Source of the DNA: Mycobacteriales bacterium
GTDB taxonomy: Bacteria > Actinomycetota > Actinomycetes > Mycobacteriales > QHCE01
DNA length: 64,000 bases
Direction: 5' to 3'
Assembly (NCBI GenBank): GCA_041743105.1
Contig: JBGTNI010000072.1
Coordinates: 10,777 to 74,776 of the forward strand
The translations under genes and the position numbers were made by a program. The first letter of the stretch is position 1. Each line of letters starts with the position of its first letter. Below the pieces are notes generated by a model. The model ran no database searches and was not told the origin of the DNA. It saw nothing but the letters and a program-made list of their open reading frames with translations. Shown here piece after piece: positions 6,820 to 61,812 of this stretch.

Positions 6820-6824
6820 ATGCG

Positions 6825-9443: not shown

Positions 9444-9453
9444 TGTCATCACC

Positions 9454-9690: not shown

Positions 9691-9767
9691 CCTGCCTTGT
9701 CTAAGGATAGATGTAAGGGCTCGTCATAGGAAGAGGCTCGAGAAGCCAGAGTTTGCCCAGCACTTTC

Positions 9768-10295: not shown

Positions 10296-10320
10296 AACAC
10301 ACTCCCGAGGGTCAAACTCT

Positions 10321-10352
10321 TAGCACATTCGTTCGATAGAACATCCGTACGA
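10321..10352. promoter_or_regulatory. Two adjacent degenerate LexA (SOS) boxes
   Basis: TAGCAC-ATTC-GTTCGA and TAGAAC-ATCC-GTACGA versus the actinobacterial consensus TCGAAC-N4-GTTCGA. Confidence 0.7.
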
Positions 10353-10411
10353 GGAGTAGACACCTTGGGTGTGACAAAATCCAGTCCGACCCGGCGCGGC
10401 GGACGGATTTT

Positions 10412-10427
10412 TCGTACATACGTTTGG
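10412..10427. promoter_or_regulatory. Degenerate SOS box upstream of lexA
   Basis: TCGTAC-ATAC-GTTTGG. Confidence 0.6.
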
Positions 10428-10532
10428 TTCAATACCCTCACGGAGGTAGCCTGAGTGGGCCAATTGCCGCAATGAGGGTGGTACTAGCGCTGTCCGTGCC
10501 GGCACCGCACGCCGCAACGAAAGGGGCCACAC

Positions 10533-11276: not shown

Positions 11277-11311
11277 ACCGCGCGTGTCACAGGTTGCCCC
11301 ACACCATGCGT

Positions 11312-12856: not shown

Positions 12857-12880
12857 AGCAGCACCGATGACGCCGCTGGT

Positions 12881-13078
12881 TCATCGACCAAGCGGCGAGT
12901 CGTGATGTGAAGCCCCTGCCACACCATCGGAGCTTTTCGTGAAGACCACGGGTGTGCGGTGATTACCGCCACGGCCGTTGATGACGGCGTAGCCGTTTCC
13001 GGTCACGACGAGTCCGCTCATCCGGGCAGTTTGGCATAGCGCATGGTCATCGCATCGAGCAGCGTTCAGGTCGTGCAA
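12881..13078 (-). pseudogene. Remnant of a paralog of 11312..12856
   Basis: LCQTARMSGLVVTGNGYAVING aligns with LCTNSDARLAEASGLVATPSGYAVVND of the adjacent gene. Confidence 0.6.
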
Positions 13079-47656: not shown

Positions 47657-47816
47657 CCGCGGCACCAGCGGCCGCTGCGTAGGACCTAGGTTATACGTCT
47701 TCAATACAATTTAGATGCCGCTGCTTATGGATACTCGGCTCTTATTTCGTCCTAGCCGATAACGAACTGTGGCGACATCGAAAGGAAGGCTGGAGACGCA
47801 TCGAAGTCCCCAGTTA

Positions 47817-48218
47817 CTACGGCAGCCCACGGGCACCTCTACGAGCCGTTTCTATCAGCGACTCGGCTGCACGGCCAGCTCGCTTAAACTCGTCCGGCGT
47901 CACCGGCGTGAAACTATAGCCCGACTTGGTCTTTAGACTGAGTAACGTGCTCAGGTGCTTTGCGGCACCTCTATCTGCCCTCTTCAAGAGCCCGATTGCC
48001 TCGTTGTGATTTTCGCCTTGAGCATGCTCCCCCAGTCGGGTACAGCAGATGACGTCCGCACTAGCGATGCCTGCGTGCACGCACAACGTCACGTAGGCAT
48101 CGGCAATATCTTCGTGCTCCTCAGCGATATCACGAATTAAATCCGCTGCCTCTATGAATTGCTCCGCCTTACGCAGCCGTCCTCGTTGGACTGTTGCGGT
48201 GCATGGCTGTGTTCGCAC
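47817..48218 (-). CDS. HEPN-like toxin
   Basis: RL.KAEQF, VHAGIA..D.ICC.RLG....GENH..A, LL.LKTK.GY. Paired with the MNT gene. Confidence 0.7.
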   Translation of the reverse strand: MRTQPCTATVQRGRLRKAEQFIEAADLIRDIAEEHEDIADAYVTLCVHAGIASADVICCTRLGEHAQGENHNEAIGLLKRADRGAAKHLSTLLSLKTKSGYSFTPVTPDEFKRAGRAAESLIETARRGARGLP

Positions 48219-48219
48219 G

Positions 48220-48843
48220 TCAGCTCTTTCCGTTTCGTAGCTGTTGCGCCAGCCAGGCCCGGTTACCGGCTACGGTAAGCCCGTCCTTCAGTACAGAGCG
48301 GAGAACTGGCTCGTTGACACCTTGAGTAGTGAGCTCCCCGGCAGCGAACTGCAGAGGCCGGGTATCATTTCCTGTCCATCGAGTTACGTCGGACACCAAC
48401 TCGTTGACCTGTGTTTCCCACAGATCCTCTTCAACATCGTTGGGCCGTACCAGTAGCAGATCCAGGTCGCTGTCTACTGTCATCGAGCCGCGTGCGGCGG
48501 ACCCGAATACAGCGGCGTACACCGGCGGTATCTCCCAGGATTCCAGGCGGTTCTCAAGGCGCTCCAGAAACTTTTCCTGGAGTCGGGCAAGGCCGACAAT
48601 ATGCTCTGCAGCGAGATGATCACGGTTAAGCAGATAAGCAAAGGCGTTCCCGACTCGCTCGGACTGTACGATGCCCTGCTTGGTTAAGCGCCGCAGAGCC
48701 TTGCGGATCCCCTCCTCCGAGGGTTTTATCAAAATCCGGTGCAGTTGTCCTGTGGTAAAAGCAGTGTCGTGTCGTGCCAGCACAGCGAGGATATCGCCGT
48801 CAAGGGTAGGAGTAACCGTCGCTAACGGTCGGCTTAGTTCCAC
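48220..48843 (-). CDS. wHTH plus minimal nucleotidyltransferase (MNT) antitoxin
   Basis: TPTLDG.IL..L wHTH, VFGSAARG.MT.DSDLDLLLV. Confidence 0.85.
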   Translation of the reverse strand: MELSRPLATVTPTLDGDILAVLARHDTAFTTGQLHRILIKPSEEGIRKALRRLTKQGIVQSERVGNAFAYLLNRDHLAAEHIVGLARLQEKFLERLENRLESWEIPPVYAAVFGSAARGSMTVDSDLDLLLVRPNDVEEDLWETQVNELVSDVTRWTGNDTRPLQFAAGELTTQGVNEPVLRSVLKDGLTVAGNRAWLAQQLRNGKS

Positions 48844-48892
48844 CGTCTGCCTCCTGAGTTCCCGTGTGAGGCTTTACAATAGTACAGGCAAA

Positions 48893-48926
48893 CCAACTAT
48901 AGTGCAGATATAAGCACTATAGTTGG
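48893..48926. promoter_or_regulatory. 13-bp perfect inverted repeat, putative MNT-HEPN operator
   Basis: CCAACTATAGTGC-N8-GCACTATAGTTGG, about 50 bp upstream of the MNT start. Confidence 0.7.
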
Positions 48927-48961
48927 ATGGATGAGAGTAGTCGTATTTGACGGCGACGCTC

Positions 48962-49474
48962 CTAGAACAGAACTGCTGCCGCTCTAGGCAATCCCTGCCC
49001 AAGATTGGTCATGCGGCGATGGCTACGTCTCCATGAGCAATATCCAAATGAAACTGCATATCGGTATGGGCTGAAATTCGTTGCAGTGTGGCGAGCGCAG
49101 GTGGGTGATCGCCACTTTCTACAGAGGCGGCTCAAGCAGCAGTAGCTCCTAAGAGCCTGCTCCTGAACTGATCTGACTCTGACAGTATCTTTGATGAGGG
49201 GTTGAAGGCGTAGGTTTAGTGATTGGCTTACGTTAGCGAGATGCTGAACTGCTGCAGCACGGACGGACGGCTCATGGTCTTTGGCAAGCTGGAGTAGCAG
49301 GATCACAGGCCAATCCGCGCCTTGGTCAATTCTTGTCGCGAGCAGCGCTGAAGAGGCGGTGTCTCTGCGGACCTGCATGTCAGAGTCAGCAGCATATTTT
49401 ACGAGTCTCGCTTCGGCATCCGCAGCTTGAATTATCTTGTGAGCCAGCGCGAACTTCGCCCATGCAACCTTCAC
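48962..49474 (-). pseudogene. HEAT-repeat-like gene fragment
   Basis: DSDMQVRRDTA and LAKDHEPSVRAAAVQHL are HEAT-like units; the rest looks degraded. Confidence 0.45.
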
Positions 49475-49660
49475 TCGCCCAGGCCTGCCACCGAAGAACA
49501 GACCGGGGCTGCCTTCTGGCGTGTTCGGCCACGACCCCGAAAGGATTGCGGTTCGGAAGGATTAGTTAATAGCGCCACGCACGGAAGCGTCACCTTGCTC
49601 AGCAGGCTAACCCGCGACTATAGGAATAGTGCTCGGATCACGCTCCGCAAAGGTAGAACG

Positions 49661-49729
49661 GGTCCCGCGTCGGCGCGGAGCGCCGGCTGATGATGCGCCA
49701 AAGCGGGCCGTGCAGCGCCGTAGGCGCTG
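49661..49729. repeat. ~70-bp GC-rich repeat, copy 1 (copy 2 at 59803..59876)
   Basis: CCGCGTCGGCGCGGAGCGCCGG..GATGCGCCAAAGCGGGCCG.GCAGCGCCG.TAGGCGCTG in both copies. Confidence 0.8.
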
Positions 49730-49741
49730 GCACACTTTGGC

Positions 49742-52700
49742 CTATAACAGAGAGCGGCCGGCCGGCCTCCGCTGGTGTGTTCCCGGCCGAAATCCCGGCG
49801 GTCTGGCAGCCGGCGGTGGTCCACCAAGCTGGGGGCCGGGTCGAGTCGGCGGGACCGGGGGGTTCGTCGTGCTCGATTTCACTGTCGGCGCAGAGCCCGA
49901 CTCGCCGCCGGATGGTGCGGATCGCTGATGTTCACGCTGCTGCTGGACCAGAAACTCGGCGTAAAAATCGAGCAACCGCCCCAGTTCGGCGTTGTATCGG
50001 GCGCGTTCGCCCAGCTCAATCGCCGCTAGCTCTCCCGGCGCCAGACCATGAGAGCTAGCGGCGGAGACCACGGGCTCACCTAGACCGCGCCGAACGGCTC
50101 CGATAACCTGCCCCGCGTACGACCAGCCGTTCTTTCCCTCGGGCGCCCGCTGCAAGGGCTTGAGGTTCTGCGACGACCTGCCGGTGCATACCAGGGCGGC
50201 GAGGCTGGCGGTGTTGGCCGCGACGAGAGCGAGCCGCTTGCCCTCGCCTCGTTCCAGCCGATCCACATCGATCGGCTTCATCCCGATCAACTTGGCCACC
50301 TCACGCGCGGAGAGACCATACGCGTTGCGATAACGACGGTGCAGCCACCCGCAGGTTCCCCATCCGTCGGGGTCGGTGCGGGGATCGGGTCTATTCTCCG
50401 ACGAGGAGGCAGCGGAATGGAGCGGTGACCTCGGGGTCGTCTCGGTCGGCGCAGGCGCGACGGTCGGGGACGGTGTGACCGCGGCCGGGACGGCGGAGTG
50501 GAGAAACCTGTGCCATGGGGGTTCAGGTGCAGGCTCGGTTCGATCCAGCGGGTCGTGCTCGCCGACGGGGCGGGTCTCGTCCAGTATTCGCTGCCAATCG
50601 TTCAGCAAGAGCAGCAAAGATTCTCGATCCTCCGCTCCGCCTCCACCGGCGAGGTTGTCGAAGCTAACGCGATCGAGCGATCCGCGGATCCGGTCGCGGC
50701 GCCGAGGCTCGTCCGGGCCAAGGACCTGTTCCAACAGTTCGGTGTGGGCCGCCGCCAGCCTGCCGATGTTCTGCCACAGTAAGCGGTGCTCGTCGGGATG
50801 AAGGGACCCAGCGCCGGATGACCGTTCCACGTCCGACCGTACCGCGTCCCCGGTCGCGTACGCCGTGATTGCCCGCGAGACCATACCGGCGGCGCTCCAA
50901 CGCTCGGCCAGCGTGGCGTCGGGGCCGGCGAGTCTGGTGTCGGCGGGATGCCAGCGGCGGGCGCGTGGATTCAGCAGGACGCGCAGCCGATCCTCGTCGA
51001 GGCCGGACCCGGCAGCCAACCCCGAGACGTAGTCGCCGGGCAGCCGCCGCCGACGGTGATCGTGTTCCAGGTGAATCGCGGCGAGCCAGTAGAAGATCTC
51101 CAGGCCGTGATTCAACTCCTCCAACGGGTCCTCGTGAACGGGTGCGATAGCCGCCGGCCGAGAGCGCAGACCTCTCCACTGGATCTCCTCGTGCAGGGCG
51201 ACGATTCGCTCATCGACGACCTGGACGAGGTCCTGTGGGGCCTCGAGTGCTTCCAGCACACGGTGGATCGCGTCCTCCGGCGGAAAATCCGGCCACGCGG
51301 CCTCTTCGATTACTCGTATTTCGCGGTAAAACCCGTCGTCGTACCGGCCGCCGGCGCTGGCCAGGTTCTTTTGACTGATAGGTGGCTCGCGGGTGAGTCG
51401 CCACTTGCTGATGGCGAGAGCAATATCGGCCCGGAGTCCGATCTCCGGGCCATAGTCAATAGTTGGCCCCACGGCGGGCTGCGGGAAAAGGCTGCCTCTA
51501 GCCCGCAGCCCGCTCAATAGCTCCGCCCGCCGAGTGGCGTCGATCTTCTTTTCCTGTTCACCCAGCAGACCCTCGAGGTAGGGAAAGAACTCGGCCACGC
51601 CGAACCCGGCGCCGGCCAGTTCGGCCTCCAGCTGCGCCCTGACCACGATCAAGTCGGCGTAGCCAGTGTCGGTGACCCCGCGGCGCGGGCCGGTCGGTCG
51701 GCCGGCCGAACCCTGCTGGCGGACCCGACGTGGCGGTCGAGCGCCCCATTCCGCCAGATGGGCCCGGACAGCGTGGCGAAGGCGGTCCCTGTCCTCGGCG
51801 GTAGCTTCCGCGCCGACACCGATCACTTCCTCGGGCATCCGGCACACCGCGAGAACCCACTGGGCAGTCCTCAGCTGGCGAAGGTTATAGCGGGGGACCG
51901 TCTCTAGCCGAAATAAATTGGCCGCGCTAATTACGTCCCTCCCTAATTCGGCATTGATGGCTCCAGCGACCGCCTGCAGAGTAAGACATGAGATTTGTCT
52001 GGCGTGTTGCAGCGACATCGCTATGTCTACGGATCGCGCGATTTCTTCCCGTGTCCCGGCCCGGGTCTCCCGCAACCCCAGGCGGGCAAAGAGTTCGGCG
52101 GCTCGCTCCTTTCTCAGCTTTTCTGCGTGCCGGTCAAGCGCCCCCTGAAATGCACTCAGCCGATCGCGTGATTCCCCCAAGAACCCCGCGTACCTTCTGA
52201 GCAACAAGCTCGCGTAGTACACCCCGTCGAAGCTGTCGATCGCGCCGCGACGTTCGAATTGTTCGATGAAATTGGCATAGTGTCGGTACTCGTTCGGATT
52301 GAAGATCTCGGCGAGAAACCGCGCCGCCACCCTTTGGGTTTCCCCCGCCGAATTTCGTGCCCTCACGATGGCGGCGACGATGTGGGGCTCCCCGACGCGC
52401 GGCGCCGCGGCCGCTTCGCTCGGCAGAGGTGGCGGCGAGGGAGACGGCCGCGGGCTGACGCTCGGCGCCCGACCGGTTAGTTGATCCACCCTGGCCTGCC
52501 GTCGCTCCGGGAGGAATTGCGCTCTCCTAGGGTCTACGTAGAGGAGATCGACGCTTGCGCGCAGGTGATCGTATACGTACTCGTAGGCCGGATTCGGACA
52601 ACCAAATCTTTCAGTGACCTCCCTGATCCGAAGCAGGTCGTCAATGCTGTAACCAATCGCGTATTCGTATTCCCGGAGAGCGGCCTCGGGAAGCTCGGGC

Positions 52701-53227
52701 ACCGCATTGGCCGCCTCTTCATGGGAAATTCCATGAATCGCCCGTAGCTCGTGCAACCCGAAGGCCACCCGCAGCATGGGATCGGCCACATCGGGTTCGA
52801 CCACGGATAATATGACACCCAGCTCACGCCGGAAGTCTTCGATAAGTCCACCACGAACCCGATCTGCGAGCCCATGAATTTCTTCGCAGGCGCTGAGAAT
52901 GAGGGCACGATTCCTATCGATAAGGTCGCGATCATTCGCCAGCTTGGCCAGGTGATTAGCTATGAGATGGGAATGAGCCACCTTGATGACGAAGTCCTCG
53001 GTCCAGTCATCGCTCTCGACGTCGCGGACTCGACGCGAATCGAGGCCGAGCCTTTTCGCCACCTCGAACGGTGAGACCGAGGGAGACGTCACTAAGCTCC
53101 GGGTCCCCGATACCAGCCGAGCAAGGTCCGTCCGAAGCGCGACGAAATCGGGCTGGGCTGCCCCCGCATCTGCCACAATCCACTCCGGCTCTTGTCCGCA
53201 CACTCTCCCGATGCGCGGCACCATCAT
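49742..53227 (-). CDS. 1161-aa orphan with several degenerate XRE-type HTH domains and a Pro/Arg-rich tail
   Basis: About six R...G.S/T....A...(G)......(R)E units, e.g. YRNAYGLSAREVAKLIGMKPIDVDRLERG. Confidence 0.7.
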   Translation of the reverse strand: MMVPRIGRVCGQEPEWIVADAGAAQPDFVALRTDLARLVSGTRSLVTSPSVSPFEVAKRLGLDSRRVRDVESDDWTEDFVIKVAHSHLIANHLAKLANDRDLIDRNRALILSACEEIHGLADRVRGGLIEDFRRELGVILSVVEPDVADPMLRVAFGLHELRAIHGISHEEAANAVPELPEAALREYEYAIGYSIDDLLRIREVTERFGCPNPAYEYVYDHLRASVDLLYVDPRRAQFLPERRQARVDQLTGRAPSVSPRPSPSPPPLPSEAAAAPRVGEPHIVAAIVRARNSAGETQRVAARFLAEIFNPNEYRHYANFIEQFERRGAIDSFDGVYYASLLLRRYAGFLGESRDRLSAFQGALDRHAEKLRKERAAELFARLGLRETRAGTREEIARSVDIAMSLQHARQISCLTLQAVAGAINAELGRDVISAANLFRLETVPRYNLRQLRTAQWVLAVCRMPEEVIGVGAEATAEDRDRLRHAVRAHLAEWGARPPRRVRQQGSAGRPTGPRRGVTDTGYADLIVVRAQLEAELAGAGFGVAEFFPYLEGLLGEQEKKIDATRRAELLSGLRARGSLFPQPAVGPTIDYGPEIGLRADIALAISKWRLTREPPISQKNLASAGGRYDDGFYREIRVIEEAAWPDFPPEDAIHRVLEALEAPQDLVQVVDERIVALHEEIQWRGLRSRPAAIAPVHEDPLEELNHGLEIFYWLAAIHLEHDHRRRRLPGDYVSGLAAGSGLDEDRLRVLLNPRARRWHPADTRLAGPDATLAERWSAAGMVSRAITAYATGDAVRSDVERSSGAGSLHPDEHRLLWQNIGRLAAAHTELLEQVLGPDEPRRRDRIRGSLDRVSFDNLAGGGGAEDRESLLLLLNDWQRILDETRPVGEHDPLDRTEPAPEPPWHRFLHSAVPAAVTPSPTVAPAPTETTPRSPLHSAASSSENRPDPRTDPDGWGTCGWLHRRYRNAYGLSAREVAKLIGMKPIDVDRLERGEGKRLALVAANTASLAALVCTGRSSQNLKPLQRAPEGKNGWSYAGQVIGAVRRGLGEPVVSAASSHGLAPGELAAIELGERARYNAELGRLLDFYAEFLVQQQREHQRSAPSGGESGSAPTVKSSTTNPPVPPTRPGPQLGGPPPAARPPGFRPGTHQRRPAGRSLL

Positions 53228-53507
53228 GACGCAAAACGGCAGCTCAGAACAGACAAAGACAGCATGAACCGTGCGGAACTGCGGCCATTTCTACCCCGAA
53301 ACGCTAAATGTCCGGTAGCGCGATGCAGAAGCCACGATGTGCGGTGAATTTTGCCGTGAAGGCGGTCTGCGGGGCGAGCCCTCCCAACGAATCCCGAGAA
53401 AAGGCACGACCATAGACCTTCGCTGCTGCTGTCCCCAGTCCTACAGAACGGTAAATAGGGTTGGATAGCCGCTTTTGAAAGTTCTGTGTACAAATCCTTG
53501 CACAGAG

Positions 53508-53558
53508 CACAAAAATCTTCTTCCAGACCTAGGTCTCGAAGGGGATTTCCCCTGGTAG
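53508..53558 (-). repeat. Degenerate att remnant (last bases of tRNA-fMet plus its hairpin)
   Basis: CACAAAAATCTTCTTCCAGACCTAGGTCTCGAAGGGGATTTCCCCTGGTAG resembles 61689-61741. Confidence 0.75.
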
Positions 53559-53576
53559 TCCTTAAGCAATCTCAGG

Positions 53577-53822
53577 TTGAACTTTATTGATCGGAGCGAT
53601 ACAGAGGTTGAGGCGCCTGAGAGGCCCCAGCGGGCGCTGTCTGGATCGTCACAATGGAAGGCTCGGCTGACGCCACAACTTCAGCCAGCCATCGTTGACC
53701 GCTACGCCAGCGGCCTGACGAGCCGGGAAGTAGCGGAGGAGCTGGGCGTAGGAAAGTCAACCGTGCTCACCCTCCTTAAGTGACAAGGAGTTGCAATCCG
53801 GCCAGTCGGCTTGCGGTACTGA
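53577..53822 (+). pseudogene. Small HTH gene with an internal stop
   Basis: IVDRYASGLTSREVAEELGVGKSTVLTLLK*QGVAIRPVGLRY*; TGA at 53781. Confidence 0.6.
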
Positions 53823-54014
53823 TCGACCACGCTGGAGGTAGACGATCACGTACGATGAAGGCAAGTCAATGCAGCCGTGTTCTTACGACTTATCACTGCT
53901 TTGACACGGCTGGGTAGGCACGGACGTGACGAAGATCGTCGTGCGCTGACGCGGTGACCGAGTTGCTCGGGTGCGTCACGTCGAGAAAGAGCGCCAAGCG
54001 TTTGCCCTAGCCCT

Positions 54015-54674
54015 TTAGGATCCGGCCCGCCGGATCCTCCCCACCCCGTTGACGCTGGGGTGCACCGATGGGTTGCCGTGATACTCAATGCCACCCACTC
54101 CGTTGACAGTGGCTGTGAGATCGTCCGTGACGGTTACGACGGCGTGCCCGACCCCGTTCACCCGGACATTCGCCCGCTTCGCGGTGAGGTCGGACAGGTT
54201 CAGATCACCCACTCCGGAGAGAGCCGCCGTCAAGGTGTCTACTTTCCCGGCGCCGCTCAGCTCACCGGCGCCGTCTTTTCGCAGCTCAAGCGCGCCTGTA
54301 TTCACGTCCACCAACTTGACCGAACCGGACCCGTCGACATCCACTCCCGCTAGCTTGGGAACCTCGATCGTGATGTCTATCGACCTGCCGGCGTTCCCCT
54401 TTCGGTCGATGGACAATGTCCTGCCAGCCACCGTGGTGGTCGCCTTATCGAGCGTCTTCTCACCGCCCTGCAGCGTGACCTTCTGCCTCGAACCGTCCTT
54501 GATGGTGACATCCGTCCTGCCGCCGTTGATCTTGATCCGATCGAACGCGGCGACCTTACGGTCCTGAGTCGTGTCAGGGCCGCCGTGGGCTTCGTCGACA
54601 CCGCAACCCGAGACCGCCAGGCAGACCGAGACCGCCAAGGCTCCGAGTGCAAGAACGCGGGTGAGCTCCTTCAT
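54015..54674 (-). CDS. DUF2807/GIN-domain lipoprotein
   Basis: Lipobox VSGC, repeated G.G.V beta-helix units, G.IEYHGNP.V..SVNGVG.I. Confidence 0.85.
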   Translation of the reverse strand: MKELTRVLALGALAVSVCLAVSGCGVDEAHGGPDTTQDRKVAAFDRIKINGGRTDVTIKDGSRQKVTLQGGEKTLDKATTTVAGRTLSIDRKGNAGRSIDITIEVPKLAGVDVDGSGSVKLVDVNTGALELRKDGAGELSGAGKVDTLTAALSGVGDLNLSDLTAKRANVRVNGVGHAVVTVTDDLTATVNGVGGIEYHGNPSVHPSVNGVGRIRRAGS

Positions 54675-55166
54675 GCCTTCATCTTCCTTACGCTCTAAGT
54701 CGATCTTTGGCAGTAGCCGGCCAAGTCAGCTCGGCACCCATCACGCCCATTGCCCCAGTAGATCTACAACCGCGGGAAGCACCAGATAACAGGGGACGGA
54801 AGCGTCTAGCACGATCACCGCAGTCAAGCCTAAGCCAACCGCCGCAGCATTCGGCTGGAATGTGAACAGGAAGGCACCGGAAAGGACGGTCATGGCGCAC
54901 ACCGTGACATGACGCCGATGAACAGCCTGGGTCCGCAGCGCCTTGCTACGCGTCTTGGTTAAGTTGGTAGGCCTGAATGAGACGGCCGTCTAGCTGGTGT
55001 CTGCGCGTCATACGTGCAGGTAGTTACACGACTAGGCGATCCGTTGACGAATCTGTCGCCTACGGCACGGAGAGGTCTTCTTAGTGGCGTTTGAGAGGCG
55101 GCAGAATGTTCCTTAAGTTGCACTGCTGCCTAGAGAATGTTCTTGAACGGCAGCTAGAGTTACATT

Positions 55167-56354
55167 ATGGACCTAGAAAAATTAGGAAGGTTGTCTTCTG
55201 GACAACTTGTACCTATCAGTGGCCATGATCCCCGAATCGGAGCTTGGAACCATCTGGCCTTTGCGCCTGACCCTTTGCCTGACACGATGCCATCCCTACG
55301 ACCAGAGACGTATCTACAGGTAGCGGACGCTCGTGCAGCCCTAGCAGCGCTGGACAGCACAGCAAAGCAGCTTCCGAATCCGCAACTACTTCGGCATCCA
55401 GTTCTTCGACGTGAGGCCCAGAGCACATCGGCACTGGAAGGCACCTACGCCCCCCTGAACGCCGTACTCAGCACCGACGAAGAGGACGGGCCATCGGGAG
55501 ATTTGCGCGAAATCCTCAACTATGTCGTGGCCGCTGAGCACGGTTTCGGCTGGCAGGCAGACGGTAGGCCGCTTACCGTGGCATCGCTTTGTGAGCTACA
55601 GCGCCTACTCGTACGCGAGACGTCTTCGCACACTCCCTCAGCCGGTAACCTCCGGGACATCCAAGTGGTGATCGGTCGTAGTCCAACAAATCCCATCAAA
55701 GGTGCCCGCTTTATCCCGCATCCGCCAGGAGACGAATTAGCCCGTCGGATGCAAGAGCTCGTTCATTGGTTACGCGCCGACCACTCCGGCAAGATCGATC
55801 CCGTGGTTGCTGCTGGCATGGCACACTACCAGTTCGAAACTCTCCATCCATTCAACGACGGCAACGGCAGAATCGGGCGGCTACTCATCGTCATGCACCT
55901 GCATACGCTGGATGTCCTGAGCGAACAAACATTGACCGTCTCCCCCTGGTTCGAGGCCCGGCGCGCGGACTACTACGACAACCTGTTCGGCGTGAGCGCG
56001 CAATCCGATTGGGATTCCTGGCTCCGATTCTTCGCCGCCGGAATCGAGAACTCGGCGAAATCTACTCGAACGCAGATGCTAGCTCTAGTAACCGTACAAA
56101 GTGAGCTCCACGAACGGGTCCGCTCTTCACATTTGCGAGCCGATTCGGCCCACGCCGTAATCGACTTCGCCGTAGCCCACCCTAGCTTCACTATCCCCAC
56201 CCTGGAGCGCGAGCTCAACCTGTCCTATACGCGGGCCAACAAGCTTGTTAACCAGCTAGTCAAGCTCGATATTTTGAGAATAGTTCCTGGTCGAGAGACA
56301 TACCGACGTAGGTTCCAGGCACCCGAAGTAATCGACGTACTACTGCAGAGCTGA
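55167..56354 (+). CDS. Fic-family protein with C-terminal HTH
   Basis: REAQSTSALEGT, HYQFETLHPFNDGNGRIGRLL. Confidence 0.95.
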   Translation: MDLEKLGRLSSGQLVPISGHDPRIGAWNHLAFAPDPLPDTMPSLRPETYLQVADARAALAALDSTAKQLPNPQLLRHPVLRREAQSTSALEGTYAPLNAVLSTDEEDGPSGDLREILNYVVAAEHGFGWQADGRPLTVASLCELQRLLVRETSSHTPSAGNLRDIQVVIGRSPTNPIKGARFIPHPPGDELARRMQELVHWLRADHSGKIDPVVAAGMAHYQFETLHPFNDGNGRIGRLLIVMHLHTLDVLSEQTLTVSPWFEARRADYYDNLFGVSAQSDWDSWLRFFAAGIENSAKSTRTQMLALVTVQSELHERVRSSHLRADSAHAVIDFAVAHPSFTIPTLERELNLSYTRANKLVNQLVKLDILRIVPGRETYRRRFQAPEVIDVLLQS

Positions 56355-56390
56355 GACACTGTGTCAGCTTCTCTCTGCAGGTCGCAGAGA

Positions 56391-56477
56391 ACACAAAATC
56401 CTCTTCCAGGCCTAGGCCTGGAAGAGGATTCCCTGGTAGCAGGGACAGGATTTGAGCCTGTGACCTCTGGGTTATGA
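56391..56477 (-). repeat. att site: duplicated 3' 44 nt of tRNA-fMet plus terminator hairpin
   Basis: 56434-56477 matches 61736-61779 with 2 mismatches; the hairpin TTCCAGGCCTAGGCCTGGAA is shared. Confidence 0.92.
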
Positions 56478-56615
56478 AAGGCGACGATCGTCTAGCTGGT
56501 ACCTGTGCGTCTCATACGTGCAGTTAGGAATCGACGAGGGTTAGTGGTTTCGTCTCAGGCGGCGGGGCGTGTCTGGCCAATTCCGGCGCGTCTCACTGAC
56601 AAATCCGCTGGCATC

Positions 56616-58340
56616 CTAAGTCGGCCGATGCGCGTCATTGGAGTTCACGAGGCTGATGGCAAGCTCCGCTTCACCTGCCGGAACAAATCGGACAACCTGA
56701 TATTCAGCGTGATCAGTTATAGCGTCGACGCGGGCAACGGACCAGCGAAGTTCGCGGACGCCGAGTGGAATTTTGGTGTTGCCCAATTGAACTACTAGGG
56801 GCCGCTGGAGCGAGGGTGATAGTAAATCTCCCACTTGGAATCCTTGGCCAAGGCTGAATGGTACGTCTAGTCGTGCCCATTCTTTGATGAGCGTCTCACC
56901 GCGAAGCAGCTGAGCCGCTTCGATAGATCTATTGATCTGGGCGGAAGTTAGCTGTTGTGTATTTCGCGGAATTTCGACCAACATTGATGTGTGTTGTTGA
57001 ATTAGTTCTAGTGCTTCGCAAAATTCAATCAGCTCAGCAACATTGGGCGCAGCGCCTACGGGTATGTTCTCTATGCCTTCTTTAGGTGGGCCATAGGCTG
57101 CACTTACTCTTAGGCGATGTGGATGACGAAAATTCTCCATAAATCGTAATCCAGGTAGTATCTGGCCGGGCCGCAGTCCCGCTAGATCACCGAGAGAGAT
57201 GGTGATTTGAGAATTTCTAGTCTTTATTCCTGTGAGCATTTCCAGGGTGAAGACACCGTTTTTTTCTGTGCCGAAAGCGCGCACGCCCTCTCCAGAGGGG
57301 CCTAGGACTGGTGGCTCCATCTTCAATAAGACGTTAGCGAGCACAGTTCCGGCTTCGTCAAGGATCGCGTTACGAACTTCGTGATATTCACCGGTCATCG
57401 GCTGACTAATCCTGACCGTGGTCATTTCTGAGGTTTTCCCTCCGAGGCCACCAGGTAGATCAGCATTCACAGTAACGGTACCTGCTGGCGCTTCAAACGG
57501 GCGACCGTACTTATCAAATAGTTCTAGATCACGACGCAACTGAGGGTCTATATTGACATTGAAAAGCAAATTGATGGGCACGGGTCGCTCTTCCAACGAG
57601 GCATCACATTTTGCAAAAATTTTGAATGTGATGCACTGGTTCTTCAAGTTGATTTGTTTGGCTGCAACTAGAAACGGCTCATCGGCGATGCTCGGCTGTT
57701 TATGCTCAACGGAGTAGTCGTAATTGTAAAAAGGGTCCTGGCTGTTAAGAGATCTATGTAAACCAGCCAATCCATTTACCACATGGCTTGGCTTCAGGTA
57801 TTCGTTGGAGGTTTCGGTATCTCCAACTTTCCCCGGAGAAAGTAGCATACGGATTGTATCGTTGAGAGATTTTATAGCACCTTCAAGCCGTTCCTTACCA
57901 TTGTGAAGGTAGTAATCGATTACATCTGGGTACTTAGCTGCCAGCCCTTCGAGGTAATCCAGCCCTAGCCAGTCACAAGGAAACCCGGCGCCAATCGTAA
58001 GCTCGTCTAGCCATTTCCGATTTTCGTGAGTCGGGTTCAAGGGCAGCGTTAAGAACCAATCCTTCACCGTCAGCCCGTTAGCTTGCGCGTAGGCCAGAAG
58101 CCGGCGATAAGAGCGCTCTATTTGCCCTTTATGACCTTTTTTTAAATTCGAGTGGAAGGATTTTGCCTGATAGACAGTGACGACGCTGCGGTTGTCTGGT
58201 TCTGGAACAAGTACGTCGATTCCGCCATCGCCCTTTGACGGACGGATACGCTTCGCGTGGCGATTTTCCCGACACAGGAAGATGCCGACCAGCTGCTCGG
58301 TTGGTTCCCCATCTAGAAGAGACCATTCCACTCTGCTCAA
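56616..58340 (-). CDS. PD-(D/E)xK restriction-endonuclease-like (Mrr-type) N-terminal domain fused to an unknown domain
   Basis: EQLV...GDGGIDV.....VYQAKSF...QI..S...W.L..P; low GC. Confidence 0.75.
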   Translation of the reverse strand: MSRVEWSLLDGEPTEQLVGIFLCRENRHAKRIRPSKGDGGIDVLVPEPDNRSVVTVYQAKSFHSNLKKGHKGQIERSYRRLLAYAQANGLTVKDWFLTLPLNPTHENRKWLDELTIGAGFPCDWLGLDYLEGLAAKYPDVIDYYLHNGKERLEGAIKSLNDTIRMLLSPGKVGDTETSNEYLKPSHVVNGLAGLHRSLNSQDPFYNYDYSVEHKQPSIADEPFLVAAKQINLKNQCITFKIFAKCDASLEERPVPINLLFNVNIDPQLRRDLELFDKYGRPFEAPAGTVTVNADLPGGLGGKTSEMTTVRISQPMTGEYHEVRNAILDEAGTVLANVLLKMEPPVLGPSGEGVRAFGTEKNGVFTLEMLTGIKTRNSQITISLGDLAGLRPGQILPGLRFMENFRHPHRLRVSAAYGPPKEGIENIPVGAAPNVAELIEFCEALELIQQHTSMLVEIPRNTQQLTSAQINRSIEAAQLLRGETLIKEWARLDVPFSLGQGFQVGDLLSPSLQRPLVVQLGNTKIPLGVRELRWSVARVDAITDHAEYQVVRFVPAGEAELAISLVNSNDAHRPT

Positions 58341-58452
58341 ACCCGCTACCCCACTACCTCAGCGGCCTAACTGGCCATCGATTCGCCAGAGGTTACAGGA
58401 AAATCAGGGGTAGCGGGTCAGCCAGCACGAGCACTACTGCATGTAATCGGCT

Positions 58453-59678
58453 TCAGCTTTGACCGTACGTTGCTGTTGTGGAGTTTCCTCTGACGTAGAA
58501 GTGCTCAGTTTTTCCACGCCAGGTGGACTGGCAGCACGGGCATGTGTATATGCCCTTGTTGTAGCTTTGAAGAGAACTTTCTGTGCATAAAGAGCAATTT
58601 TGGGAAGTTATTGTTTTTTCACTAAGGAAGTTGAGCTGCGATAAGGTGTGGCTTTGGTGTTCTGTTTGTTCATTATTTGTACAGCTTATGCTAATCTCAG
58701 GTACGCTTTTTAAAACATACGATTCAGTGTTGTTTTCCGTATATATTTCGCATTCTTCTGCGTTTATCATATAGCCTCTGAGTCGGTCTGCTGCCACGGG
58801 TAAGGGGTCAACGGAAATAACGCGGGTTCCGGTGAAGTTTGTTCCTATGAGGGACTTCACTAGTAGATCTGATTCTGGCGCTGAGTAGCCAAAGACGTGT
58901 AACTCGCCGGCGTTTGGATGGCTTCGGCGGCTAGGCGCCAGGCTGCGCGCAGGATCTTATTCCCGTAGTACTCAGTCTTCACCGCTGTGGGCGGAACGAT
59001 GAACGGCACCTTGTCCACTAAGAAGTTAGGTCGTGTGCCCGAAGTGCCGTTTACCCGCCGTTGCCACCCCCCGCCACGTTGGTTGAGGTAAATCAAGTCG
59101 TTGGTTGGGGCATCAAACCCTGCGTAATACCAGTTGATGGACCCGTGAAGCTTAAGCAGGTGAAACGCCGTCTCTTGTTTAGAACCGAAACTCAAACCTG
59201 CGGGGGCGCGTTCAGATGCAGGCGTCAGCGGCAGAGGATAGACATTAGTAAGCCGCTCTGACTCGGCTCCCCACAGTGCAGTATCGACCGCTGCTTCTAC
59301 CAGTTCGTCATAGTTAAACGTGATGACAGTCGCTGATGTTTCTCTCCAATGATGAACAAGGGTCATAAGCCACCCAGGCATTGGCTCATCGAACACCGAA
59401 TTTTGCGCATCGTCCAGGACGCGGGAGACAGCTGTTGTCACCTCGTAGAAGGCAGCCCGATTGTGCATGTTTTGGCTTTCACTAAGCCAGGGTTGCTCGG
59501 TAGACAGGAACGTCATCCACGCTTCGAAGTCATCAGAGAAGGTCTCGACCGATCTCGATGATGGGAAGTTCGTTTCTTCCAGGTGTTCAGCAACAGCGGC
59601 CGACAGGTCTTTCATCAAAGGCATGTGATGGCTTACGGCTTTGGAAAAGCCAGCACCGAGCACATAGACCGTCGACAT
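58453..59678 (-). pseudogene. SIR2-like (SIR2_2) NADase with a C-terminal Cys4 Zn ribbon, one frameshift near 58915 (possibly a sequencing error)
   Basis: YVLGAGFS, ITFNYD, LKLHGSINW, IVPPT. Adding one A to the AAA run continues into ELHVFGYSAPESD and then ORF 58453..58860 (CSLC...CPCC). Confidence 0.8.
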
Positions 59679-60034
59679 TCCCACCCTCGTCACAAGCATC
59701 CCGCTAATCCTGATGACGCTACGCAACAGCCAGACTGACGGACAAGAGGCGAAGCTAAGGAACTTCAACCCCAGTTGTAGAGTCAGATGCCACAAGATCT
59801 GCGGTTCCGCGTCGGCGCGGAGCGCCGGAGGCTGGCCGATGCGCCAAAGCGGGCCGCGCAGCGCCGGTAGGCGCTGCCTTGATTCCTTGTATAGAAAGTT
59901 TCCGTATGGCCAGAGCGATGTGTTTGTCTGGTCTCGGTAGTTGCGTGACAGTGCGTGCGGCAGGCGCCTAGATACGGAGCTGATGGGTTCCGCAGGCCCT
60001 GTCCCAGTTGAGCACCAAGTCTGCTCTGCCGAGA

Positions 60035-60988
60035 TCACTTAGCTTCGTCGATAGCGGCGACCCAACTGTTGACATCAGCAACCGCCTCGTCGAGAGACAG
60101 CGTGATATCCGCCGATGCAGCGGCCCTTGCGTAGTCGTCCGCCCAGTGGGCGTGGATGATCACGATCGGCGGCCAAGCCCGGGACGGAAGGCTAAGCTGC
60201 TGGGCTTCGTCCGCCCTGCTCTCGAATACCGCTGTCGCGGCAGCACGAATCTGAGCGAGAGCCGGGTAGCCGGCCTCTGCTACGAGGTGGCGCAGAAGGA
60301 GTAGGTCGACGACATCGCGGGCACGGTCATTGACGTTGCTCGGCGGATCGTGAGGATCGGAGACCGCGTGGAGCTTCTGAGCGATCTGAAACCGCATGGC
60401 GATCCCGACCAGCGTGTCCGGGTCGGGTAGACCGAAGCCGGTCAACGGGGGTGGTTCGATTGCCTCGAATTCGTCACCGATTCCAGCCTCGTCAGGTGAG
60501 ACCTCGAACTGGATGCGCCGCCACGTCACACCACGGAGTTCGATGACTATGTCGAACCGACGCGGTTTGATGGCCCTGGTTGGTACGTCGACGTCCTCGA
60601 CCTCGTCGCGGCGCAGCGTCAGTGGTCCCCAAGGCTCGGCGAGCGCGCCCTCCAAAGCGATCAGGAACGCGTCGAGGTCGCCGCGTACGAGGCCGTCGAC
60701 GTCCTTAGTGGTACGCGCGGTTGTGTTGAGTCGGTGCTGGAGCAAGCTGCCGCCCTTGAGTAGGAACAATTGCCTGCCGTCGGTATCAATGGCTCGTTGA
60801 ATGGCCGCGATCGCTACCGAGGACGCGACCAGCCATCCCAGCCGACCGCCTTTGGCTTCGGGCCCGAGCTTGCCTTCAGCTTGGGCGATCCAGTTGTTCA
60901 GCACGGTTGCTGACATTGGCTGTTTGGCCTTCGGTTTCAGAGTGCGTAACAGCGCGGCGAGCCGCGACCCGATGAACTCATCGCTCAT
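60035..60988 (-). CDS. AbiEii nucleotidyltransferase toxin (type IV TA)
   Basis: LLKGG.LL, RTTKDVD, QIAQKLHA, DRARDVVDL. Confidence 0.9.
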   Translation of the reverse strand: MSDEFIGSRLAALLRTLKPKAKQPMSATVLNNWIAQAEGKLGPEAKGGRLGWLVASSVAIAAIQRAIDTDGRQLFLLKGGSLLQHRLNTTARTTKDVDGLVRGDLDAFLIALEGALAEPWGPLTLRRDEVEDVDVPTRAIKPRRFDIVIELRGVTWRRIQFEVSPDEAGIGDEFEAIEPPPLTGFGLPDPDTLVGIAMRFQIAQKLHAVSDPHDPPSNVNDRARDVVDLLLLRHLVAEAGYPALAQIRAAATAVFESRADEAQQLSLPSRAWPPIVIIHAHWADDYARAAASADITLSLDEAVADVNSWVAAIDEAK

Positions 60989-61547
60989 GTCTGACCTCCA
61001 GGGCTCGAGCGAGTTCCTCGCGCTCGGTCGTCTTCAAGTGCCCCTTTGCGTAGCCTCGCTCAATCGCCTGCCGAAGCAGGTAGGTCGGAGTACCGTAGTC
61101 GATGCATTGGGCGATTGCGGTGGCCGACGTCACCGTCGGAACCTCCTGCCACCAGCCGACCTGCGCGGGCACAAGGTGCTCATAGTGAATCTCGTAGTCG
61201 TCCCCGCCGGCACGTCGTAGTCGCCGGCTCTTGGCGACCGTGATGTGGATGCGGTTGGGGTTGATGTCACTGATCGCATAGACGTCCAGCGCTGTCTCGT
61301 GGCTCAGGCACGCCTCGGGCACCCTGGCCCACAAGACAGCGAGCATGTAGGGGTCGAACTGGCTCACCGGATACTGCGGGAATCGATAGACGCCAAACGC
61401 CTCTCGCGTGAGCGTGCCGCGCTGCACTAGCATCTGCAGGGCGTGCTTGCCCACGCCTAGCTCGGTTGCCTGCTGAGCGGTCACAAAGCCGTGCTGACCG
61501 GTGGCCGTCTCCCATAGCTCTTCACGAGCGAGCATCTTCGCGTACAT
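60978..61547 (-). CDS. AbiEi antitoxin (type IV TA)
   Basis: A..QHGFVT..QA..LG, GVYR, LSHETAL, VPTVT.ATAI..C. Confidence 0.9.
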   Translation of the reverse strand: MYAKMLAREELWETATGQHGFVTAQQATELGVGKHALQMLVQRGTLTREAFGVYRFPQYPVSQFDPYMLAVLWARVPEACLSHETALDVYAISDINPNRIHITVAKSRRLRRAGGDDYEIHYEHLVPAQVGWWQEVPTVTSATAIAQCIDYGTPTYLLRQAIERGYAKGHLKTTEREELARALEVRHER

Positions 61548-61697
61548 GGCAAAAGTATAACGAAAACGTGACACTACTGACACAGCGGAATACACATACT
61601 GTTGCGATGGATGTAGTGCTCAATTATCTCGGCAAGCAGCAGCCGGTGTAGCGCTCCGAATTTTACGCTGACAAATCCGCTGCCATTGACACAAAAA

Positions 61698-61732
61698 ATC
61701 CCCTTCCAGGCCTAGGCCTGGAAGGGGATTTT
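61698..61732 (-). terminator. Intrinsic terminator downstream of tRNA-fMet
   Basis: AATCCCCTTCCAGGCCTAGGCCTGGAAGGGGATT hairpin followed by a T run on the minus strand. Confidence 0.8.
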
Positions 61733-61735
61733 CCC

Positions 61736-61812
61736 TGGTAGCGGGGACAGGATTTGAACCTGTGACCTCTGGGTTATGAGCCCAGCGAGCTACCGAACTG
61801 CTCCACCCCGCG
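61736..61812 (-). tRNA. tRNA-fMet (CAT), initiator
   Basis: CGCGGGGTGGAGCAGTTCGGTAGCTCGCTGGGCTCATAACCCAGAGGTCACAGGTTCAAATCCTGTCCCCGCTACCA, with unpaired position 1:72 and three G-C pairs in the anticodon stem. Confidence 0.97.

What the first reader, a model, noticed from the sequence alone, without database searches (positions are those of the whole stretch)
49742..53227. 1161-aa orphan built from a string of degenerate XRE/Cro HTH domains
Seen: at least six HTH-like units separated by helical or Pro-rich linkers, with no recognisable catalytic domain: LHELRAIHGISHEEAAN..LREYE; IVRARNSAGETQRVAAR..IEQFERRG; LQHARQISCLTLQAVAG..SAANLFRLE; ISKWRLTREPPISQKNLA..IRVIEE; RYRNAYGLSAREVAKLIG..VDRLERG; GAVRRGLGEPVVSAASSHG..LAAIELG. 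It ends in the basic tail. Ordinary XRE regulators have one or two HTHs. Inference: a modular long-site DNA binder, a nucleoid-targeting toxin or effector, or an anti-phage sensor.
Basis: partly seen in the sequence, partly recalled or inferred. Interest (0 to 1): 0.7.

Follow-up and report, generated by a model that had tools for sequence, protein, structure and literature searches.

The report
Giant multi-HTH protein, small actinobacterial family
This is a real gene for a large, enzyme-free, all-helical protein made of eight or nine DNA-binding-type helix-turn-helix modules; it belongs to a tiny family known only from a few uncultured actinobacteria, and its function is still unknown.

Summary
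The 1161-aa ORF (49742-53227, minus strand) is real and coding-like. It is not a strict orphan. A full HMMER scan of 1.84 billion representative proteins found 9 relatives, all from uncultured actinobacterial MAGs. They include an 87% ortholog and a sister genome with four or five paralogs, some in tandem.

The AlphaFold model is entirely helical, with nine repeats of long helix, two short helices, long helix. Support for the helix-turn-helix (HTH) reading by unit:
- **Sequence level:** three units (aa 26-99, 945-1015, 1030-1102) are recognisable XRE-type HTHs.
- **Helix pattern only:** the remaining units.

No catalytic, secretion or membrane feature was found. The divergent, partly acidic core is the most conserved part. 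The canonical C-terminal HTHs vary in number between paralogs. A Pro-rich/basic C-terminal peptide is kept throughout.

The gene lies in a variable, defence-rich block beside tRNA-Met, but its paralogs do not.

Best reading (about 0.4): a DNA-binding architectural or regulatory protein. The toxin reading has no support. It is a new variant of a known kind, of moderate interest.

The parts
49742..53227 (-). Whole ORF, 1161 aa (P0001). The likely true start is the GTG at 53176 (residue 18), giving about 1144 aa.
   Evidence: ORF; GC by codon position 0.716/0.509/0.726; homolog N-termini; GGAG 6 nt before the GTG.
52931..53152 (-).
52535..52795 (-). U1, aa 145-231: strongly conserved, acidic (net -9) HTH-like unit.
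   Evidence: Helix pattern H145-165/H169-174/H181-188/H195-207. Only weak Pfam hits in homologs (E 0.012-0.024). hhalign with U3 68%. 30% of columns invariant among 4 family members. Charge.
52391..52471 (-). Pro-rich disordered linker, aa 253-279. Some paralogs carry a ~150-aa helical insertion here.
   Evidence: pLDDT below 50; 9 Pro in 27 residues; insertion seen in P0008, P0009 and P0004.
52178..52390 (-). U2, aa 280-350: conserved HTH-like helical unit with the weakest HTH evidence.
   Evidence: Helices 280-293/298-308/311-327/333-345. HTH_25 E 0.022 at aa 320-353. 28% invariant columns. hhalign to other units 14% or less.
51836..52060 (-). U3, aa 390-464: conserved, basic HTH-like unit.
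51482..51670 (-). Conserved helical hairpin, aa 520-582; not HTH-like.
51164..51451 (-). U4, aa 593-688: the structurally best-supported XRE-fold unit; acidic (net -6).
50558..51154 (-). Compact central domain, aa 692-890 (U5 701-792 plus U5b 812-884): two HTH-like four-helix units packed together.
50396..50557 (-). Pro-rich disordered linker, aa 891-944.
   Evidence: pLDDT below 50 over aa 888-944. 13 Pro, counted over aa 885-944. dN/dS about 0.86.
50183..50395 (-). U6, aa 945-1015: canonical XRE-type HTH with a preceding conserved GW-x3-G cap.
   Evidence: HTH_31 24.6 bits and HTH_3 21.6 bits on the isolated segment, both below cut-off. P0009's aligned stretch scores HTH_31 27.2 bits, at cut-off. 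Family profile 65.6 bits against decoy 5.3. PDB profile hits to MBF1, 434 repressor, ClgR and HipB at E 0.004-0.1.
49922..50140 (-). U7, aa 1030-1102: second C-terminal XRE-type HTH, a tandem duplicate of U6.
   Evidence: hhalign U6-U7 96.8%, E 2.8e-10. P0009's aligned stretch scores HTH_25 26.3 bits, above cut-off. Family profile 52.0 bits.
49745..49921 (-). Disordered Pro-rich, basic C-terminal tail, aa 1103-1161.
   Evidence: pLDDT below 50. Net +6, 15 Pro, pI 12.
49781..49831 (-). Conserved C-terminal peptide, aa 1133-1149 (QLGGPPPAARPPGFRPG). The family pattern is GG-x-LP-x(2-4)-P-[PL]-x-[FY]-[RKHW]-[PS]-G, followed by a basic run.
   Evidence: Kept at the extreme C-terminus of P0001, P0005, P0008, P0009, P0013, P0002 and P0004, including P0004, which lacks U6/U7, and P0002, which has extra modules. 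A looser copy lies further upstream in P0012/P0014, and P0011 has a partial one. It occurs only once in the six-frame translation of the window's own genome.

Best explanation
The gene encodes a cytoplasmic, non-enzymatic, all-alpha 'beads-on-a-string' protein. It belongs to a small family confined to a few uncultured actinobacteria.

**Anatomy**
- A conserved core of divergent lambda-repressor-like helical modules (U1-U5b) plus a conserved helical hairpin.
- Sequence-recognisable XRE-type HTH modules on both sides: U0 at the N-terminus and U6-U7 at the C-terminus.
- A conserved Pro-rich/basic C-terminal peptide.

**Proposed mechanism**
- It acts as a DNA-binding architectural or regulatory protein.
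- The terminal canonical HTH modules and the basic tail contact DNA at two or more separated sites.
- The conserved, partly acidic core is a spacer and protein-interaction platform rather than a row of DNA readers.
- The number and sequence of the C-terminal HTH modules, which differ between paralogs, set the target.

**Shown:** the gene is real; the family, the modules, the lack of any enzymatic or membrane feature, and the conservation pattern.

**Inferred:** DNA binding, bridging or looping, and the division of labour between the ends and the core.
For: **The gene is real and constrained**
- Coding-like GC by codon position.
- 87% ortholog in G004. dN/dS is 0.17-0.31 in the central folded units and about 0.8-2.2 in the linkers.
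- A ~90% identical relative occurs in an independent metagenome run. The listed indels at 50827-50840 and 51206-51213 sum to 6 and 3 bases.

**XRE-type HTH units**
- U6 gives sub-threshold Pfam hits.
- Homologs pass the cut-offs at aligned positions for U0, U6 and U7, and P0011's best HTH_3 stretch aligns to U4.
- A family HTH profile recovers U0, U6 and U7 at 25.9, 65.6 and 52.0 bits, against a top decoy of 5.3 bits among 132 decoys.
- A PDB profile search lists MBF1, HigA3, 434 repressor, ClgR and HipB at E 0.004-0.1.

**Modular 'reader' end**
- By the family profile and the alignment, paralogs carry 0 (P0004), 2 (P0001, P0008, P0009) or 5 (P0002) C-terminal canonical units.
- The C-terminal peptide stays at the very end in 7 of the 9 distinct complete C-termini printed (11 rows); P0012/P0014/P0003Cterm carry it further upstream and P0011 only in part.

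**No other function is visible:** no catalytic, defence or phage family, no Walker A motif and no transmembrane segment.

**Precedent in print for arrays of HTH modules reading DNA:** TnsD-like target selectors with multiple C-terminal HTH domains (PMC10293859, one passage read).
Against: - No DNA-binding experiment or operator site is known.
- Only 3 of the 8-9 units are HTH by sequence.
- U1, U4 and U5b are strongly acidic (net -9, -6, -5) and the whole protein has pI 6.7. This is atypical of DNA-contacting modules.
- The recognition-helix positions of U1, U4 and U7 carry few basic or polar residues, as the sequence shows directly.
- The most conserved regions are the least HTH-like: U1, U2, U3 and the hairpin have 28-32% invariant columns, against 13-14% for U6 and U7.
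- The upstream region holds no direct repeats. It has only a few imperfect inverted repeats.
Confidence: 0.4

Rival explanations
1. Anti-invader poly-HTH protein. The HTH array recognises or coats foreign DNA, or senses a phage protein. This would be the XRE-type counterpart of the predicted 'poly-wHTH' systems. The fast-evolving C-terminal HTHs would track diverging invaders.
For: - The gene lies in a ~12.8-kb variable block beside tRNA-Met. The block holds AbiEi/AbiEii, a SIR2-like gene, a gene with a LmuA-like N-terminus, SoFic (E 2e-83) and an MNT-type nucleotidyltransferase.
- In G004 the MNT pair sits directly beside the tRNA, and the ortholog is on another contig.
- Distribution is patchy: 3 of 6 genomes of the family, and absent from the 93%-complete same-genus G001 with these queries.
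- One 2.4-Mb genome has expanded the family to 4-5 copies, with tandem arrays.
- Overall dN/dS is 0.57.
- A preprint describes tandem wHTH arrays, some without an effector, predicted to coat invasive nucleic acids (10.64898/2026.10.19.760177, section 37 read in full).
Against: - P0001 has no PADLOC or PHROGs match.
- The paralogs in G002 lie beside aconitase, CtaA, PurU, an aldo-keto reductase and an ABC transporter, not beside defence genes.
- No effector gene is conserved next to family members.
- The units are all-helical XRE-type, not winged HTH: the model has no strand.
- dS is only 0.125, so the dN/dS values are noisy.
Confidence: 0.2
2. Protein-interaction scaffold. The HTH-derived modules have lost DNA binding and serve as docking sites for other proteins, as XRE-type HTHs do in RodZ-MreB or in antitoxin-toxin pairs. 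The C-terminal peptide would be a short linear motif for a partner.
For: - The most conserved modules are acidic or neutral.
- The C-terminal peptide is conserved irrespective of the number of modules and is unique in the genome.
- The central domain is compact and confidently modelled (pTM 0.82) without a convincing DNA-binding match.
- RodZ (2wus) and the antitoxins HigA and HipB are among the structural neighbours.
Against: - No partner gene is conserved in the neighbourhoods.
- The terminal units keep canonical XRE signatures, and U3, U6 and the tail are basic.
- No interaction has been tested.
Confidence: 0.2
3. Nucleoid-targeting toxin or secreted effector.
For: Only the context: toxin-antitoxin-like and defence genes are nearby. 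The basic tail could in principle bind nucleic acid.
Against: - No toxin, nuclease, ADP-ribosyltransferase or peptidase domain.
- No signal peptide or transmembrane segment: the maximum Kyte-Doolittle 19-residue mean is 1.38.
- No cognate immunity or antitoxin gene is conserved next to family members.
- Several paralogs coexist in one small genome.
Confidence: 0.03
4. Spurious or decaying ORF of a GC-rich genome.
For: - No family was found by the word-indexed searches.
- The protein has a low-complexity composition rich in Ala, Arg, Leu and Pro.
Against: - Coding-like codon-position GC along the whole length.
- Full-length homologs of 1100-1470 aa without stops in other genomes.
- Folded units show lower dN/dS than the linkers.
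- Confident AF2 domains.
Confidence: 0.02

Closest known systems
XRE / Cro-C1 (lambda-repressor-like) HTH proteins: Pfam HTH_3, HTH_31, HTH_25; solved examples 2ofy, C.BclI 2b5a, C.AhdI 1y7y, BldD DNA-binding domain 2ewt, 434 repressor, ClgR, HipB
   Same: The individual modules have the same helix layout. U0, U6 and U7 carry the sequence signature, and U4, U0 and U3 give the best structural matches to these proteins.
   Different: - Ordinary members are 60-300 aa with one HTH, sometimes two, and act as dimers (general knowledge).
- This protein strings 8-9 such modules in one 1161-aa chain.
- Most modules have diverged beyond Pfam detection, and several are acidic.
Poly-wHTH ('poly-HTH') systems predicted in preprint 10.64898/2026.10.19.760177 (section 37 read)
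   Same: - Tandem HTH copies in one polypeptide, six or more.
- Some systems lack any adjacent effector.
- Rapid diversification.
- A nucleotidyltransferase pair of MNT type lies about 0.9 kb downstream in the window.
   Different: - Those arrays are made of a specific winged HTH. Here the modules are wingless, all-helical XRE-type.
- No ParA, Tox-RelA, HEPN or other effector is conserved next to family members.
- The 133-aa neighbour has no HEPN match.
- Their function is itself only predicted.
TnsD-like target selectors of Tn7-like transposons (PMC10293859, one passage read)
   Same: A long C-terminal region folds into multiple HTH domains that read DNA. This is the idea of several HTH modules together defining a long site.
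   Different: - No TniQ core: no zinc finger (only 7 scattered Cys) and no Pfam TniQ match.
- No transposase genes nearby.
Multi-HTH clusters of 609-659 aa (HTH_3/HTH_31/HTH_26), mostly Planctomycetota, in the ESM Atlas
   Same: They are the nearest language-model neighbours and are also long proteins with several XRE-type HTHs.
   Different: - The scores are 0.88 and 0.87, below the tool's 0.9 line, so this is a lead only.
- No alignable similarity was found by HMMER.
- They are half the length, and their HTHs are detectable by Pfam.

Membership tests
XRE/Cro-C1 HTH (Pfam HTH_3 / HTH_31) | Sequence match at or above the Pfam gathering score | tested here: not met
   P0001 itself falls below cut-off: HTH_3 20.3 bits (cut-off 23) and HTH_31 18.0 bits (cut-off 27). 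The isolated U6 segment scores HTH_31 24.6 and HTH_3 21.6 bits. Homologs do pass at aligned positions: P0002 HTH_31 45.6, P0011 HTH_31 75.6 and HTH_3 57.2, P0004 30.2, P0009 27.2 bits. The family therefore contains bona fide units, although this protein fails the formal test.
XRE/Cro-C1 HTH (Pfam HTH_3 / HTH_31) | Lambda-repressor-like four- or five-helix fold of the module | tested here: inconclusive
XRE/Cro-C1 HTH (Pfam HTH_3 / HTH_31) | Sequence-specific DNA binding | not testable with these tools
   Needs EMSA, DAP-seq or SELEX.
Poly-wHTH systems (preprint 10.64898/2026.10.19.760177) | Modules are the particular rapidly evolving winged HTH | tested here: not met
   The model has no beta strand in any of its 1161 residues. 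The modules match XRE-type, not winged, HTH families.
Poly-wHTH systems (preprint 10.64898/2026.10.19.760177) | Six or more tandem HTH copies in one polypeptide, with or without a downstream effector | tested here: met
   Nine helix-pattern units, six with some sequence or structural support. No conserved effector.
TnsD/TniQ target selectors | TniQ core with zinc finger, and linkage to Tn7-like transposition genes | tested here: not met
   No Pfam TniQ hit; 7 scattered Cys; no transposase among the neighbours.
Type II antitoxins with XRE HTH (HigA, HipB, MqsA) | Small protein encoded next to, and co-transcribed with, a cognate toxin gene | tested here: not met
   The protein is 1161 aa. No toxin gene is conserved beside family members. 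The NCBIfam MqsA-family hit scores only 15.2 bits against a cut-off of 61.8.
Known anti-phage defence proteins (PADLOC-DB 2.0.0) | Match to a PADLOC model | tested here: not met
   0 families at E <= 0.001 for P0001, while 6 of the 14 neighbour ORFs scanned in the same call matched.

The most novel reading that the evidence does not exclude
P0001 and its relatives are a new class of invader-directed or silencing proteins. A conserved, non-DNA-reading core made of fossil HTH modules carries a variable, fast-evolving array of XRE-type HTH 'readers' and a partner-docking C-terminal peptide. The protein coats or bridges foreign or specific chromosomal DNA. This would be an XRE-based analogue of the predicted poly-wHTH systems, expanded in an uncultured actinobacterial lineage seen in hot-spring and soil metagenomes.
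Probability: 0.15. Interest if true: 0.7.

Novelty: new variant of a known kind. Interest (0 to 1): 0.4.

Why it matters
XRE-type HTH domains normally work as single modules in small dimeric repressors. A chain of eight or nine of them poses two questions:
- How are long or multiple DNA sites read by such a chain?
- How do DNA-binding modules turn into structural or protein-binding ones? Here the core is conserved but no longer looks like a DNA reader.

If the defence or silencing reading holds, this would add an XRE-based member to the newly proposed class of 'DNA-coating' HTH arrays.

If it is simply an accessory regulator, the value is smaller: a defined, annotatable family for proteins now labelled 'hypothetical' in MAGs.

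Tried and rejected
**Searches for relatives**
- The two word-indexed homolog searches returned only the query: single protein and alignment A1.
- The search for related loci on genome contigs with A1 failed because no stretch was conserved enough. With A2 it returned 2 loci.
- The metagenome-contig scan with A2 matched 532 pattern stretches, none of them a relative.

**Structure and profile searches**
- Foldseek of the whole model against PDB gave only long helical repeat proteins at TM <= 0.11, which is meaningless.
- Foldseek of the central domain gave nothing at E <= 0.001 against PDB or BFVD.
- PDB profile searches meant to isolate the core (A4, A5, A3) gave nothing significant for it. The profiles also kept columns outside the intended segments, so they were not truly segment-specific.
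- Pfam on eight isolated segments of P0001 found HTH families in only 1 of 8, which was U6.
- The iterated family HTH profile did not recover U1-U5b in P0001.

**Order-wide scan with the central domain**
- 7 of 401 genomes matched at E <= 0.001, and 3 of these are real (G000, G002, G004).
- The weak hits in G237 and G321 fall in type I restriction HsdR genes, so I rejected them.
- The weak hits in G329 and in the unpublished G230 lie in short frames with stops. I did not examine them, and nothing in this report rests on them.

**Other**
- The 89-aa ORF overlapping the annotated start (53224-53493) has a TTG start, an odd composition and no family. I treat it as non-coding.
- The 133-aa ORF downstream of the G004 ortholog is unrelated to the window's 133-aa ORF.
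- Complex prediction with two copies of aa 465-592 gave the verdict 'no answer' (score 0.00). This is neither support nor evidence against self-association.
- The look-up of sequencing runs listed no RNA holder, so there is no information on expression.
- Literature searches with generic phrases for multi-HTH proteins found no paper on this family. They cannot search by sequence, so this is weak evidence that it is not in print.
- The supplements and figures of the cited preprint were not seen.


Full report

The minus-strand ORF 49742..53227 translates to 1161 residues without a stop. GC by codon position is 0.716/0.509/0.726 overall, and the same pattern holds in every 100-codon block. That is what a true gene in this ~62% GC genome should show.

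Homologs start at the position of residue 18. That residue is a GTG with GGAG six bases upstream, so the real protein is probably ~1144 aa. The 89-aa ORF overlapping the annotated start looks non-coding.

Two other metagenome runs also hold the gene:
- One run of the same study holds it nearly identically.
- One run of a different study holds a ~90% identical relative over most of its length. The listed indels at 50827-50840 and 51206-51213 sum to 6 and 3 bases.

**2. Orphan?**

Not strictly. The word-indexed searches found only the query. The exhaustive HMMER scan of 1,835,955,588 representative proteins found 9 relatives at E <= 0.001, five of them at E <= 1e-30:
- an 87% identical C-terminal fragment;
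- three long proteins of 1194-1472 aa at 38-41% identity;
- a 1380-aa protein at 31% and a 1108-aa protein at 29%;
- three shorter fragments.

All belong to clusters of one or two members. They come from MAGs that depositors label 'Mycobacteriales bacterium' or 'Acidimicrobiales bacterium', and are named 'hypothetical protein' or 'helix-turn-helix transcriptional regulator'.

Distribution in whole genomes:
- The gene was found in 3 of 61 relatives searched, counting the window's own genome.
- With the family-specific central domain as query, 7 of 401 genomes of the order matched. Only G000, G002 and G004 are real. Two weak hits are HsdR restriction subunits, and two were not examined.
- The 93%-complete same-genus genome G001 gave no match with the full-length protein, the central domain or the C-terminal query. 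The N-terminal query gave only one weak hit there (E 3.2e-4, a 90-aa frame).
- The window's genome has one copy.
- G002 (2.4 Mb) has four or five, two of them in tandem on one contig. Another is preceded by an overlapping 759-aa multi-HTH gene.

**3. Anatomy**

The AF2 model of the whole protein (10-row alignment; mean pLDDT 66.8, pTM 0.36) has no strand. The pattern long helix, ~7-residue helix, ~8-residue helix, long helix recurs nine times:

| Unit | Residues |
|---|---|
| U0 | 26-99 |
| U1 | 145-231 |
| U2 | 280-345 |
| U3 | 390-461 |
| U4 | 593-688 |
| U5 | 701-792 |
| U5b | 812-884 |
| U6 | 956-1015 |
| U7 | 1034-1102 |

Disordered Pro-rich linkers lie at 253-279 and 888-944. A helical region at 473-576 holds a conserved hairpin. 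The tail at 1103-1161 is disordered.

The evidence that these units are XRE-type HTHs is uneven.

*Sequence level*
- P0001 alone gives only sub-threshold hits at U6.
- Paralogs pass the Pfam cut-offs, and their hits map through the alignment onto U0, U6 and U7. P0011's best HTH_3 stretch maps onto U4.
- I built a profile from 11 Pfam-supported units of the family and iterated it with 132 reversed or shuffled decoys. It recovers U0, U6 and U7 of P0001 at 25.9, 65.6 and 52.0 bits, against a best decoy of 5.3 bits. It does not recover U1-U5b.
- Among the 28 unit pairs, hhalign links U6-U7 at 96.8%, U1-U3 at 68%, U0-U6 at 60%, U0-U4 at 52% and U0-U7 at 47%. The rest are below 35%.
- A PDB profile search lists only XRE-type proteins near the top, at weak E-values of 0.004-0.1.

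*Structure level*

So the 'string of HTH-like units' is real as a structural pattern. It is firmly XRE-type for three or four units, plausible for two more, and unproven for the rest.

**4. What else is, and is not, there**

No catalytic, defence, phage or transposon family matches. There is no Walker A motif and no hydrophobic segment (maximum KD19 1.38), and only 7 Cys.

- **Charge:** U1, U4 and U5b have net charges of -9, -6 and -5. U3, U6 and the tail have +3, +4 and +6. The whole protein has pI 6.7.
- **Conservation among four full-length members:** it is highest in U1, U2, U3 and the 520-582 hairpin (28-32% invariant columns). It is lowest in the canonical U6 and U7 (13-14%) and in the linkers.
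- **Variable C-terminal array:** paralogs have 0, 2 or 5 canonical C-terminal units.
- **Conserved C-terminal peptide:** a peptide of the form GG-x-LP-x(2-4)-P-[PL]-x-[FY]-[RKHW]-[PS]-G plus a basic run stays at the very end in 7 of the 9 distinct complete C-termini printed. P0012/P0014/P0003Cterm carry a looser copy further upstream, and P0011 has a partial one. It occurs nowhere else in the window's genome.
- **Selection against the 87% ortholog:** dN/dS is 0.57 overall, 0.17-0.31 in U5/U5b, and about 0.8-2.2 in the linkers. dS is only 0.125, so these values are noisy.

**5. Context**

The window is ordinary chromosome: PolA, ribosomal protein S1, MiaB-like, HflX-like, and RecA with an intein. 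The exception is a block next to tRNA-Met at 61736-61812. Its contents, in order:
- AbiEi/AbiEii
- a SIR2-like gene
- a 574-aa gene with a LmuA-like N-terminus
- SoFic
- a DUF2807 gene
- a 68-aa sigma-region-4-like HTH gene
- P0001
- a HEAT-repeat gene
- an MNT-type nucleotidyltransferase pair

In G004 the MNT pair lies directly beside the tRNA and UPF0182, and the P0001 ortholog is on another contig. The ~12.8 kb block from AbiE to HEAT is therefore variable.

The G002 paralogs, however, lie beside aconitase, a LysR regulator, an ABC transporter, CtaA, PurU, a MerR regulator and an aldo-keto reductase. The only recurrent neighbour is another family member.

**6. Mechanism**

My best reading (0.4) is a DNA-binding architectural or regulatory protein.
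- The canonical end modules and the basic tail contact DNA.
- The conserved, partly acidic core acts as a spacer or interaction platform.
- The variable C-terminal array sets the target.

Rivals:
- an invader-directed poly-HTH protein (0.2);
- a pure protein scaffold (0.2);
- a toxin or effector (0.03);
- a spurious ORF (0.02).

None of the DNA-binding steps is shown.

**7. Comparison with what is known**

- **XRE/Cro-C1 HTH proteins** are the closest kind at the level of the module. P0001 itself fails the Pfam thresholds, and the chain architecture is not that of ordinary members.
- **'Poly-wHTH' systems** are the closest concept in print. A 2026 preprint (10.64898/2026.10.19.760177; passages and section 37 read) predicts that they coat invasive nucleic acids. 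Those use a winged HTH, which is not met here.
- **TnsD-like selectors** with multiple HTH domains (PMC10293859, one passage) and **CasPRIB2** with four HTH domains (10.64898/2026.02.23.707548, passages) show that HTH arrays occur. They have other defining cores.
- **Giant actinobacterial toxins** that combine an array of HTH domains with toxin domains are mentioned in PMC8195603 (one passage). P0001 has no toxin domain.
- **Multi-HTH clusters of ~600 aa in the ESM Atlas** are leads only, at score 0.88.
It is a parallel that I did not test.

**8. Verdict**

The protein is real and unusual in architecture, and it belongs to a very small, undescribed family. It is built from a known kind of module and has no demonstrated function. 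I class it as a new variant of a known kind, with interest 0.4.

Noticed in passing
window 20421-22544 (-): A 707-aa RecA interrupted by a LAGLIDADG_2 homing-endonuclease domain (RecA 8-205 and RecA_C 637-693 flank LAGLIDADG_2 316-493). This is a RecA intein.
   Followed up: no
window ~47800-61812: A variable, defence-rich block beside tRNA-Met (61736-61812, -). It holds AbiEi/AbiEii (60035-61595), a SIR2-like gene (58860-60038), a 135-aa ORF, a 574-aa gene with a LmuA-like N-terminus (56616-58340, GC only 0.51-0.53), SoFic (55167-56354, PADLOC E 2e-83), a DUF2807 gene, and an MNT-type nucleotidyltransferase (PDC-M05A) with a 133-aa partner (47817-48843).. In G004 the MNT pair sits directly next to the tRNA.
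   Followed up: partly
window 53513-53548: An 18-nt-arm palindrome (83% complementary, no spacer) lies in the 350-bp divergent intergenic region between P0001 and the 68-aa sigma-region-4-like HTH gene (53577-53783). It is a possible operator for either gene.
   Followed up: no
L010 (G002:C58) 3-8991 and L011 (G002:C50) 8724-14326: Tandem arrays of family members. On C58, two paralogs are separated by a 282-aa ORF with no family, and the first is split by an assembly gap. On C50, a 759-aa multi-HTH gene overlaps the start of the 1108-aa paralog. These copies carry a distinct HTH subtype with an 'HFPGW...WP..G' cap and a 'GGGYDP' turn. The 759-aa protein also shares a C-terminal segment with P0011.
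   Followed up: partly
window 5720-6454 (+): A zeta-toxin-family kinase-like ORF (Pfam Zeta_toxin E 3.5e-17), far from the finding.
   Followed up: no
L012 (G004:C36) 1506-1663: Just downstream of the G004 ortholog lies a 158-bp stretch 82% identical to the 3' end of the window's SoFic gene (window 56227-56384). Pieces of the same island travel with the gene, but in a different arrangement.
   Followed up: no
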